DNA from: Trichinella spiralis | Lineage: Eukaryota | Assembly (NCBI RefSeq): GCF_000181795.1 | Contig: NW_003526943.1 | Coordinates: 4,429,228 to 4,493,227 of the forward strand | Length of the DNA stretch: 64,000 nt | Direction of reading: 5' to 3' | In this document: piece by piece, positions 56,142 through 58,885 of the stretch | Layout of the letters: each line of letters opens with the position of its first letter | Position numbering within the stretch: position 1 is the first letter of the stretch | Notes under the pieces: generated by a model | Database searches by the model: none | What the model was told of the DNA's origin: nothing | What the model saw: only the letters and a program-made list of their open reading frames with translations | Made by a program: the position numbers and the translations under genes

Positions 56142-58885
56142 CTATGCAACTAACTGTCGAAGCGATTCAACTTGACGGGCCAGGAAGAAGCACTGCTCAG
56201 CTAAACAACTGGAGAACAAGCGAATTGCTTCATCCAGTTGCTGCTCAATATCTGATCCGATATTCAGAAACGTATCAAATAGCCAGCTCCACATTTTAGC
56301 ATCCCAGCTGCACCTTGTAGATATGTTCGCAGACCAGTGATCACTTGTTGGAAATTTAAATGCGTCGAGTCGACATCCAAATATCAGCCAATGAACGCTG
56401 TTCAACAAACCGAAGCAGTCAATCTTAAAAACAGCAAACAATGAAATAATTGACGGTGGGAATAAAAATACAATAAAACAAGCATACCTGAAAAGTCCAA
56501 GGTTTCTTGTCGCGCATTTCGCAGCAAAGTAAGTGGTCCACATGCTGTTCATGTACAAATTTGTAACCCTCTGGCAACAGATTCAAGTCGACGGCATTGC
56601 CAAAGTCTGCGATCTGCAGACAAGCCGCGGAACATTGTATCCAAAAATCGGCCTGATCGGCTGCTTCGATTTGTTGTTTGCTCAGATCAATACCCAAAAA
56701 CAGAAACGCTTCCGGGCGAATATTGCCATGGATTACCTTACAGCGGCATAAGTGACGGAGAATCTTCAGCATGTCCAACGTGAAGAATGCGGCCGTGGCT
56801 TCGCGCAGACCGTCCCTAGGCCAGCCTTTCCGAAAGGCCAATTCCGCTAGTGTAAATCGGGATCCAAATGCCAAAGTGATTAAGGAACCATCTGAAAACG
56901 AATGAGCACAAAGAAGACGCTGTACAGCGTTCCCATTACTAGAACAATCGTCATCTTGATTCAGCCGCTTCAGCACAACTATCTCACGCAGCATCTGATC
57001 CTTGGAATGGAAAACTTTGACGCTCAGCAATTGATTGGGCTCGTCCAGATGTTGACAGAGGAACATGTCTTGCAACGGCATTACCGATAAAATATTGTAT
57101 TTCTGCTTTTCAATCAGCAACATACACCCGACATTCACTTTTGGACTTCTGCAAGGATGTTCATGATAATCGCTAGCTTCGACAGCAGCACAAGCCAGAG
57201 CTTCGTACTTCACCAGCTGTTGCTCGTCCAAATGAACAGAGTCTATGCAAATAAAAAATTTAAACAATTCACCAAATCATCTTACTACAAGGAGCAAATT
57301 ATCAAAATCAAAATTTTCTCTCATTCCTACTTTCAACGTTTTCTTTTTCAGAAAAACGTGCCAGTTTGTTTTTGGTGTTGCACTCAGGTTTAATTTTAAA
57401 CACACTGGTCACGTCACCAATTTGAGAAAAATGTAAAAAACTCGACTGCGAAAATGCATTTCCAGATACAAACGATTCACGATGATCAGCTACCATCGTG
57501 ATATTTTTCATCTCGTCAAAATCCACTCTACAATTTAATAATGTAAACAACAACAGCTATCTGCCAGAAGTTATAACTGCAAATAATGAAATTACTTCAG
57601 TGTACTTTCGGAAGCTTTCGAAGACTCGTCTGTTGTGGTTTTGTTAAATATTGTTGACGTAGACAAAAAACTGCGATATCCTTTCCTCGATGTAGGTGTG
57701 GCAGTAACAGTAAAATTTGCATCAGGAGTGTGAGATACACGCGGTGTCGATACATATTTCGAACCAATTTGCGTGTACATTCCGACGAATGTATTTTCCA
57801 TAGGTTGAGCAATCTTTTCACTCTTGGCTACATTTCGTGAGGCTTTTGGATGAAAAATAATAAATCAAAATATGCAGTTAAACATGCACACTAACTAAAT
57901 CATAATGATCAGCAATCTAAATGTTATTAACATTGCATTGTTGTGAACTAATATGACTTAATAAAAGCAGCCTTGTGCATATAACACAGAACATAAAAAT
58001 TCTCATAAATTATAACAAGCACTTATGAGTAAAGAAAACAGCAACACTGTATCATTATACCATTTTGAAAATAATAAAAATTAAGATATTTTTCCACAAT
58101 AAACAAATTTAGTCTGTGCTCTTTAAATGAGGCAAGAAATTTTTGCTGGTCCTTTTCTTTCAAAAATTTAAATTTAATTTATAAAAATTGTTAAACCTTG
58201 GAAATAAAGAACAATTAGTCCTCGACTGACGACTACGCAGATTTGCGACGGCAGTTCTTATTTAAAAAAGTGCAACAGAACCCTATTATAAAACACAGTT
58301 TAATTGCATATTATGCATAATAATCGTTTAATTATTCATATGATTCATAGGGATCAACAGAACGAACGGAACCCAATCGTAAGTCGAGAACTATCTGTAC
58401 TTCATTTGAACATTAATAAAATAGAAAATATTTAAATTGTTTTTTTTATTTTAATGTTTTTTAAATAAAAAGATTGCTTTTAAGGTATAAAATTTTCATA
58501 TGCAATACTCTAACTAGAGTAACTCGTAAAATTCTCTGCCATGCACACCAGTAAGAGGAATTTTCATGCAAATCGTACAAAGTCATCTTAAAAAAGTAAA
58601 AAATAAAAAATCCTACAGAATTACTATACCAACTAGAAAGCGCTAGAAGCAATATATCCGTTGATGGGAAAAACCTTTTTATCTTATCTTATTTCTTTTC
58701 GATACTTACTCAAACAGCGTGATGCTCTCAGTTCTTCAAAAGATATTTCGCCTGTGGCGCTATTTACCAATTCGTCAGGAAAACAATAAACTTTAACAAA
58801 CTCCTAAATAATAATATTTACTAAAATATAAACAAAAATAACCATATGCTATATAACAATTTTCACTTACACGTTTCCCTGTCAT
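56142..58885 (-). CDS. Bub1/BubR1-family protein: GLEBS motif + KEN + degenerate kinase domain, no TPR (529 aa)
   Basis: Exons 58885-58871, 58803-58710, 57842-57596, 57527-57331, 57242-56488, 56423-56142 total 1590 nt in frame. GEISFEELRA (GLEBS); EKEN; Bub-type kinase signature VIHGNIRPEAFL...ADFGNAVDLNLLP...CCEMRDKKPWTFQIDCFGL...HWLIFG. Confidence 0.88.
58212..58397. mobile_element. Tigger/pogo-type MITE in an intron of the Bub-family gene
   Basis: TIRs CAATTAGTCCTCGACTGACGA and CAGATAGTTCTCGACTTACGA (reverse complement); TA on the right flank. Confidence 0.7.

What the first reader, a model, noticed from the sequence alone, without database searches (positions are those of the whole stretch)
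56142..58885. TPR-less Bub-family pseudokinase: GLEBS + KEN + catalytically dead kinase
Seen: the intact 529-aa frame begins five residues before the GLEBS exon. There is an in-frame TAG upstream of the ATG and a ttttcag acceptor ~50 nt upstream, so no TPR or N-terminal KEN is encoded. The kinase has HGNIRPEA in place of HGDIKPDN and no Gly-rich loop, though the VAIK Lys (SVKV) and DFG remain. Established: Bub1/Mad3 duplicates normally keep the TPR, vertebrate BubR1 is a pseudokinase, and C. elegans SAN-1 lost the kinase. Inference: an independently evolved checkpoint paralog with an unusual architecture, possibly a Bub3-competing decoy or a meiotic scaffold.
Basis: partly seen in the sequence, partly recalled or inferred. 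Interest (0 to 1): 0.72.

Follow-up and report, generated by a model that had tools for sequence, protein, structure and literature searches.

The report
Trichinella's only Bub1 kinase looks dead
In the parasitic worm Trichinella, the only annotated Bub1-type cell-division gene is spliced and kept in all 12 taxa, yet lacks its N-terminal TPR domain and catalytic aspartate, so it likely acts as a kinase-dead scaffold at the chromosome's spindle-attachment site.

Summary
Observation confirmed. A six-exon, 529-aa gene (Trichinella; named T. spiralis records match it) encodes a GLEBS at residues 8-34, a KEN, and a Bub1-fold kinase with HGNIRPEA and no Gly loop. RNA supports all five introns. The 58934 acceptor is cis-spliced to non-coding exons, and two in-frame stops precede the ATG, so no TPR is encoded. 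All 27 Trichinella records (12 taxa) carry HGN, and the gene is under purifying selection.

The 'spare paralog/decoy' idea is not supported: curated kinomes of T. spiralis and T. pseudospiralis list this gene as their only BUB kinase. It keeps the beta3 Lys, alphaC Glu and DFG but has Asn at the HxD Asp. This matches C. elegans BUB-1 D814N, which is dead yet viable and still recruits MAD-1 and HCP-1/CLS-2.

Best reading: the worm's BUB orthologue, reduced to a Bub3-tethered non-catalytic scaffold (function inferred). Precedents for a TPR-less dead Bub are zebrafish MAD B and trypanosome KKT14. Open: whether a TPR-bearing MAD exists; the MAD-1-binding helix residues are changed. New variant of a known kind.

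The parts
59440..60171 (-). Upstream non-coding 5' UTR exon (5' end not defined), in repeat-like DNA; holds only short uORFs
   Evidence: Junction 59440>58934 in 6 reads and in contigs X1/X3; contig span 59440-60171; loose ends point to multi-copy sequence; 8 uATGs, longest ORF 58 aa
59234..59305 (-). Alternative upstream 5' UTR exon (donor at 59234; the 5' limit is approximate, taken from contig length)
   Evidence: Junction 59234>58934 in 2 reads and in the X7 contig
58871..58934 (-). Exon 1: 49 nt of UTR with in-frame TAA (58930-58928) and TAG (58909-58907), ATG at 58885, codons 1-5
   Evidence: Sequence and translation; both splice sites seen in RNA
58710..58803 (-). Exon 2: GLEBS (Bub3-binding) motif, residues about 8-34
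   Evidence: Matrix score 23.8 bits, 0 of 1000 shuffles; 31 of 31 residues identical to T. pseudospiralis against 116 of 150 in the linker
57596..57842 (-). Exon 3: disordered linker with S68-T69-P70 (57750-57742), a candidate PLK-1 polo-box docking site
   Evidence: pLDDT below 50 for residues 40-189 except 63; STP is kept across the Trichinella alignment but is only suggestive (52 of 1000 shuffles)
57331..57527 (-). Exon 4: linker with KEN 180-182 (57346-57338) and a degenerate ABBA-like stretch at residue 162
   Evidence: both junctions in RNA
56488..57242 (-). Exon 5: N-terminal extension, N-lobe without Gly loop (57084-57064), K260, E271, HGNIRPEA (56730-56707), DFG (56607-56599)
   Evidence: Alignments; model pLDDT mostly 80-93 over the kinase; Foldseek top six are all Bub1/BubR1 kinase structures
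56142..56423 (-). Exon 6: rest of the C-lobe and the stop codon

Best explanation
This is the only annotated Bub-kinase gene of Trichinella; it has lost its TPR and its catalytic aspartate and likely serves as a non-catalytic kinetochore scaffold. Shown: gene structure, splicing, absence of a TPR, residue losses, genus-wide conservation, Bub1 fold of the model. Taken from a paper's tables: single copy in two curated kinomes. Inferred mechanism: (1) the GLEBS binds BUB-3, which would be the only route to phosphorylated KNL-1 once the TPR is gone; (2) the disordered linker would carry regulatory sites, a candidate CDK-primed STP for PLK-1 (the genus is reported to lack MPS-1) and a KEN that may be a degron; (3) the dead kinase keeps Lys260, Glu271 and the DFG to hold a folded, active-like shape that would dock partners, most likely a CENP-F/HCP-1-CLASP-type module and less likely MAD-1. 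No histone H2A phosphorylation by this protein is predicted.
For: One BUB row per species, flagged single-copy orthologue, and one PTHR14030/IPR015661 row per kinome table (PMC5015942 supplements). A word search with the active Soboliphyme Bub1 kinase found 13 chromadorean nematode Bub1s and no named Trichinella or Trichuris among 50 hits. Best hits in the exhaustive search are the two Soboliphyme BUBs (E 5e-40 and 1e-31). Against 28 other Bub kinases: K260, E271 and D397 match 28 of 28; N358 replaces D (27 of 28), A363 replaces N (27 of 28), R360 and E362 replace K and D (28 of 28). In C. elegans, D814N (the same HxD Asp, human D917) abolishes activity yet rescues viability and MAD-1 recruitment, whereas K718R;D847N abolishes MAD-1 recruitment (PMC3941058 passages); D814N also recruits HCP-1/CLS-2 (PMC10005782 passages). 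Trichinella kept exactly the two residues needed for that scaffolding and lost the dispensable one. Selection: kinase 273 of 308 identical against linker 116 of 150 (Fisher p=0.002); 9 synonymous to 7 non-synonymous changes.
Against: The residues equal to human L875 and N879, the helix that binds MAD-1 in C. elegans, are A317 and F321, against L in 26 of 28 and N in 26 of 28 others. This argues against C. elegans-type MAD-1 docking. In C. elegans the TPR is essential for BUB-1 kinetochore localisation (PMC10996584 passages), so TPR loss requires rewiring that I did not show. 'Only copy' rests on draft-genome annotation whose authors say the kinomes may be slightly underestimated, and one search also missed this pseudokinase itself, so it is blind to diverged copies. 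Tree placement is weak: with Soboliphyme at 0.91 in FastTree and 66 in IQ-TREE, unresolved on a long branch. The STP site is not significant and there is no strict ABBA or KARD motif. RNA depth is low. The TAG is not conserved in two partial T. pseudospiralis models, which run 13 residues further upstream.
Confidence: 0.62

Rival explanations
1. C-terminal product of MadBub fission: a separate Trichinella gene carries KEN1-TPR-ABBA-KEN2 and this gene carries GLEBS plus dead kinase, as with zebrafish MAD A and MAD B. It would still be a scaffold, but by a different history.
For: Same architecture as DRER_MAD_B (TPR 0, GLEBS 1, kinase 'pseudo'), described as a duplication and fission product. 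The ORF starts right at the GLEBS. An unnamed clade (P0098, P0119, P0147) also starts just before ABBA/GLEBS.
Against: Soboliphyme, a clade I relative, already has separate BUB and MAD genes, both with TPR, so simple TPR loss from BUB needs fewer steps. No TPR exon lies in the 64-kb window.
Confidence: 0.15
2. One reading: a dead paralogue beside an undetected active Bub1, acting as a Bub3-competing decoy or a stage-specific scaffold.
For: Soboliphyme has such a pair, an active HAD copy and a HAG copy that keeps its TPR. Draft annotations can miss genes. A degraded partial copy of exon 5 exists elsewhere.
Against: One BUB per curated kinome in two species; no active Trichinella Bub1 among the 50 hits; no further close relative in the tree of 143 kinase domains. 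The partial copy carries frameshifting deletions. The two Soboliphyme copies group with each other (96-100 support), although grouping Trichinella with the HAG copy is not rejected (p-AU 0.066).
Confidence: 0.1
3. An atypical but weakly active kinase that still binds Mg-ATP through K260, E271 and the DFG.
For: K260, E271, D397, C424 and E426 are conserved and the fold is intact. Some HxN kinases keep trace activity (recalled, no call).
Against: The Gly loop is replaced and three residues shorter, and the catalytic-loop Lys and Asn are also changed. The single D814N change already abolishes C. elegans BUB-1 activity. T. brucei KKT14 (HGN) showed no autophosphorylation.
Confidence: 0.08
4. A relic under relaxed selection in a streamlined genome, or a mis-annotated gene end.
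For: Very long branch (2.0-2.8 changes per column). The lineage is reported to have lost CENP-E and MPS-1. Several database models have other N-termini.
Against: Reading frame and HGN kept in 12 taxa, GLEBS 31 of 31 identical, dN/dS at most 0.36. The alternative N-termini come from repeat or off-frame sequence whose junctions were not seen in RNA.
Confidence: 0.05

Closest known systems
Nematode BUB-1 (C. elegans BUB-1; Soboliphyme BUB P0027/P0028), including the engineered BUB-1 D814N allele
   Same: Bub3-binding motif, disordered linker with STP, C-terminal Bub1 kinase fold, no N-terminal KEN1. The natural N358 sits at the position of D814N, with the beta3 Lys and DFG Asp kept.
   Different: No TPR (essential in C. 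elegans); about 530 aa against 760-1000 aa in the chromadorean BUB-1s checked; Gly loop and catalytic-loop Asn also lost; MAD-1-binding helix residues changed.
Zebrafish third MadBub homologue, DRER_MAD_B (Tromer et al. 2016, PMC5204127)
   Same: No TPR, GLEBS present, kinase labelled pseudo.
   Different: It derives from BubR1, keeps a KARD and four ABBA motifs, and sits beside an active Bub1. The Trichinella gene has no strict ABBA or KARD and no known active sibling.
Kinetoplastid KKT14 (PMC11286163)
   Same: Bub1-like pseudokinase with no TPR and no Gly loop; HGN in T. brucei; partner is a Bub3-like protein.
   Different: KKT14 lacks the beta3 Lys, the DFG and a recognisable GLEBS, all kept here; it has an ABBA motif; unrelated lineage, so convergent.
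Vertebrate BUBR1 pseudokinase
   Same: Degenerate Gly loop; kinase fold kept for stability and scaffolding (10.1101/733378 passages).
   Different: BUBR1 keeps TPR, KEN1, ABBA-KEN2-ABBA, KARD and the catalytic triad, and coexists with active BUB1.
Schistosoma mansoni MadBub (table in PMC5204127)
   Same: An animal with no Bub kinase activity on record (kinase column 0).
   Different: It lost the kinase domain altogether and kept TPR and KEN boxes, the opposite of the retention seen here.

Membership tests
MadBub (Bub1/BubR1/Mad3) family | Bub1-type kinase domain | tested here: met
   PDB sequence hits are Bub1/BubR1 at E 1e-19 to 2e-18 (6 of 7 hits); Foldseek ranks 1-6 are Bub1/BubR1 at E up to 3e-18, next 5e-10
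MadBub (Bub1/BubR1/Mad3) family | GLEBS / Bub3-binding motif | tested here: met
   23.8 bits, 0 of 1000 shuffles; no Pfam PF08171 hit; binding itself not tested
MadBub (Bub1/BubR1/Mad3) family | N-terminal TPR (PF08311) | tested here: not met
   No Pfam hit; no hit with own HMM in the window or in five Trichinella models; in-frame stops and RNA junctions. Known members also lack it
BUB-type paralogue (Bub1) | No KEN1 or ABBA1-KEN2-ABBA2 cassette; kinase domain retained | tested here: met
   Only one internal KEN and no strict ABBA; human BUB1 also has two 'other' KENs
BUB-type paralogue (Bub1) | Intact catalytic motifs (Gly loop, HxDxKxxN) | tested here: not met
   HGNIRPEA in 27 of 27 records; Gly loop absent
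BUB-type paralogue (Bub1) | Orthology to nematode BUB-1 by phylogeny | tested here: inconclusive
   Best hits are Soboliphyme BUBs; grouped at 0.91 and 66; unresolved
BUB-type paralogue (Bub1) | Polo-box docking STP in the linker | tested here: inconclusive
   S68-T69-P70 conserved in the genus; 52 of 1000 shuffles score as high; STP found in 10 of 12 other nematode BUBs checked
BUB-type paralogue (Bub1) | MAD-1-binding surface on the kinase (human L875/N879) | tested here: not met
   A317 and F321 against L 26 of 28 and N 26 of 28
MAD-type paralogue (BubR1/Mad3/SAN-1) | KEN1 + TPR + ABBA1-KEN2-ABBA2 | tested here: not met
Pseudokinase | Loss of at least one canonical catalytic residue with the fold retained | tested here: met
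Pseudokinase | No measurable phosphotransfer | not testable with these tools
   Inferred from C. elegans D814N
Pseudogene | Broken frame, no splicing, neutral evolution | tested here: not met

The most novel reading that the evidence does not exclude
Trichinella divides with no Bub1 kinase activity at all, and reportedly no MPS-1 or CENP-E, and may have no TPR-bearing Mad3 either. A single GLEBS + dead-kinase protein would be all that remains of MadBub, the H2A-phosphorylation route to centromere protection would be lost or rerouted, and kinetochore targeting would rely on BUB-3 alone, the reverse of C. elegans.
Probability: 0.25. Interest if true: 0.78.

Novelty: new variant of a known kind. 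Interest (0 to 1): 0.56.

Why it matters
It is a natural, genus-wide version of the laboratory kinase-dead BUB-1 allele. It bears on a long-running question: which Bub1 functions need catalysis and which need only the fold. It adds an independent case of convergence on 'no TPR + dead Bub kinase' (with zebrafish MAD B, KKT14 and an unnamed clade seen here), and here it appears to be the only copy in an animal. It predicts rewired KNL-1/BUB-3 recognition, which can be tested in C. elegans, and that ATP-site Bub1 inhibitors would not act through catalysis in this parasite. The gene is annotated as an ordinary BUB1 kinase; I found no paper noting the lost Asp or TPR.

Tried and rejected
No whole genome is held for this window, so no direct paralogue inventory was possible. 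A GLEBS-only search for a Trichinella MAD gave just 4 candidates, all orthologues, and is uninformative; whether a TPR-bearing MAD exists stays open. The ESM Atlas placed the whole protein with Bub1/BubR1 clusters and gave no usable hit for residues 1-190. The run index listed no holder on record as RNA; the RNA evidence comes from laying reads. Trans-splicing at 58934: only cis junctions seen. Database N-terminal extensions (P0001-P0005, P0008, P0012-P0014, P0016): rejected, as they use repeat sequence and junctions absent from the reads and contain no TPR. Assembly error at HGN: rejected (27 of 27 records). The KEN as a checkpoint KEN1/KEN2: rejected on position and context. My GLEBS matrix scores both Soboliphyme BUBs negative, but also two Caenorhabditis BUB-1s, so no claim of reciprocal GLEBS loss is made. 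TPR loss caused by the upstream repeat: cannot be shown, since the same start exists in non-encapsulated species whose upstream DNA I could not see. Rfam found nothing; the bacterial promoter scan was at chance and does not apply. The VIA structure alignment did not run. Korhonen 2016 supplements held none of six checkpoint terms; PMC4668945 is not held; PMC3573124 and PMC13161223 passages added nothing. Earlier findings of this scan: none. Not seen and possibly relevant: supplement file 1 of PMC5015942 and the FASTA supplements of PMC5204127.

Full report
Gene and organism. The region is an AT-rich eukaryotic locus. The kinase exon matches Trichinella proteins at 87-94% over the frame, and named T. 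spiralis records match the window's protein (P0001; P0226). No whole genome is held. Six minus-strand exons give an intact 529-aa protein. Models of the same length exist for T. patagoniensis, T. nativa, T9, T. pseudospiralis and T. papuae.

RNA. Raw reads of run X18 (about 18% of the run read, 69 reads laid) and contigs of X1, X3 and X7 show all five introns; contigs of X4 and X10 show the three introns inside the stretch laid. The exon holding the ATG begins at the 58934 acceptor and is cis-spliced to non-coding exons with donors at 59440 and 59234. It carries two in-frame stops before the ATG, so no upstream exon can add protein through it. Six other AG sites between 58906 and 58878 would leave the frame open, but no read uses them. 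Depth is low, so a rare isoform is not excluded. A TPR profile from 51 MadBub N-termini finds nothing better than E 0.96 among 2781 window ORFs, whereas 7 of 8 exon-sized tiles of a held-out Soboliphyme TPR score E 1e-6 to 9e-3; tiles of the Steinernema control scored more weakly.

Anatomy. Residues 8-34 are a GLEBS (0 of 1000 shuffles). Residues 40-189 are predicted disordered. They hold an STP at 68-70 (suggestive only, 52 of 1000 shuffles), a KEN at 180 (0.05 expected by chance), and no strict ABBA or KARD motif. Residues about 190-529 fold confidently; the six best structural matches are Bub1/BubR1 kinase domains. Against 28 other Bub kinases, the beta3 Lys, alphaC Glu and DFG Asp are kept. 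The HxD Asp, the catalytic-loop Lys, Asp and Asn, and the Gly loop are lost. All 27 Trichinella records, from 12 taxa, read HGNIRPEA.

Selection. Between the window and T. pseudospiralis the GLEBS exon is 31 of 31 identical, the kinase 273 of 308, and the linker 116 of 150 (Fisher p 0.002 for each comparison with the linker). One contig of a related organism (X10) differs at 22 sites, one in the UTR. Of the 21 coding sites, 16 were displayed: 9 synonymous and 7 non-synonymous, giving dN/dS 0.21, or 0.36 if all 5 unseen sites are non-synonymous (p 0.002 and 0.02). It is not a young pseudogene.

Copy number. The curated kinome tables of PMC5015942 (seen: abstract, passages, matching supplement rows; file 1 not searchable) list one BUB-family kinase in T. 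spiralis and one in T. pseudospiralis, as single-copy orthologues, and the listed sequences are this gene. The paper reports no MPS-1 in any Trichinella, warns that the kinomes may be slightly underestimated, and has no occurrence of 'BUB' in its main text beyond an author name or of 'inactive'. My searches agree but are not proof. The exhaustive search listed 150 of 925 hits; in a tree of 143 kinase domains (140 hits long enough plus 3 Trichinella models) only the two Soboliphyme BUBs were near. A word search with the active Soboliphyme kinase found 13 chromadorean Bub1s and no named Trichinella or Trichuris among 50 hits, but it also missed this protein. A degraded, frameshifted partial copy of 56924-57308 exists elsewhere.

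Phylogeny. Trichinella is a long branch: with Soboliphyme at 0.91, at 66 in an 18-row animal set, and unplaced in a 44-row quick tree whose careful search did not finish. The two Soboliphyme copies, one active and one with HAG, group together (96-100), so their dead copy is probably a separate event; the alternative is not rejected (p-AU 0.066).

Mechanism. PMC3941058 (passages) shows that C. elegans D814N, the HxD Asp equal to human D917, abolishes kinase activity but rescues viability and MAD-1 recruitment, while K718R;D847N blocks MAD-1 recruitment. [quoted passage not shown] Trichinella has fixed the D814N-type change and kept the Lys and DFG Asp, the pattern expected of a scaffold. Against the MAD-1 part, the residues equal to human L875 and N879 are A317 and F321. 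PMC10996584 (passages) shows the C. elegans TPR is essential for kinetochore targeting, with BUB-3/MELT additive; a TPR-less protein would have to rely on BUB-3, the model accepted for other species. 10.1101/2022.10.07.511262 (passages) describes a nematode-conserved STP that docks PLK-1; S68-T69-P70 is a candidate. All partner binding is inferred. A decoy role has no active sibling on record to act against.

Known parallels. [quoted passage not shown] It includes Soboliphyme but not Trichinella, and scores Schistosoma MadBub as having no kinase. PMC11286163 (passages) describes KKT14, a TPR-less Bub1-like pseudokinase with HGN in T. brucei. Five unnamed records (three clusters) form another clade with ABBA, GLEBS, STP, LxxIxE and an HxN kinase but no TPR. 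Context: Trichinellida are described as monocentric and as having lost CENP-E (PMC11827601 and PMC9071541 passages). Searches for a paper on Trichinella Bub1 returned none (0 papers; none relevant in the listings).

Verdict. Real and conserved; a new variant of a known kind. The architecture has precedents. What a specialist would find striking is that this appears to be an animal genus's only Bub kinase, naturally dead and without the domain that C. elegans needs for targeting. Interest 0.56; up to about 0.78 if a TPR-bearing MAD is also absent.

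Noticed in passing
window 56924-57308 (contig 11 of X12, contig 2 of X10): A second, diverged partial copy (38 differing letters over about 330, with frameshifting deletions) of part of exon 5 and intron 4 exists elsewhere: a pseudogene fragment, seen in two runs.
   Followed up: partly
P0098, P0119, P0147, P0224, P0225 (unnamed records): A separate clade of 661-742-aa Bub proteins that start just before an ABBA motif and have GLEBS, STP, LxxIxE and an HxN pseudokinase but no TPR; it lies among other animal sequences in the tree. 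Likely another convergent case; N-terminal completeness not verified.
   Followed up: partly
P0027, P0028 (Soboliphyme baturini): A lineage-specific BUB duplication: one active copy and one with TPR plus a degenerate kinase (HAG, DFS, no Gly loop). The table in PMC5204127 lists only one Soboliphyme BUB.
   Followed up: partly
window 59440-61800: The 5' UTR exon lies in repeat-like DNA; 60295-60670 matches 42648-43026 at 78%. An ORF at 61409-61723 (+) looks like a retrotransposon gag relic (recalled likeness, no Pfam hit). Database models of T. britovi, T. murrelli, T8 and T. patagoniensis use the same upstream sequence, so it predates those species. A repeat-derived promoter is possible.
   Followed up: partly
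window 45412-47850 (+): Broken Pao/BEL retrotransposon pol fragments (RVT_1, Peptidase_A17, integrase).
   Followed up: partly
window about 62189-63311 (-): Upstream neighbour: a multi-exon gene with a signal-peptide-like start, no significant Pfam hit, low expression, two introns seen in RNA contigs.
   Followed up: no
window below 53900 (-): Downstream neighbour: a WD40 beta-propeller gene; a 348-N gap lies at about 54153-54500.
   Followed up: no
window 57813-58739: The 867-nt intron 2 is covered by RNA contigs at about a third of exon depth in X1 and X3: possible intron retention or pre-mRNA, which would give a GLEBS-only peptide of about 43 aa.
   Followed up: no
No named Trichuris Bub kinase appeared in either search; it may be very diverged or lost. 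Most rows are unnamed, so this is only a lead.
   Followed up: no
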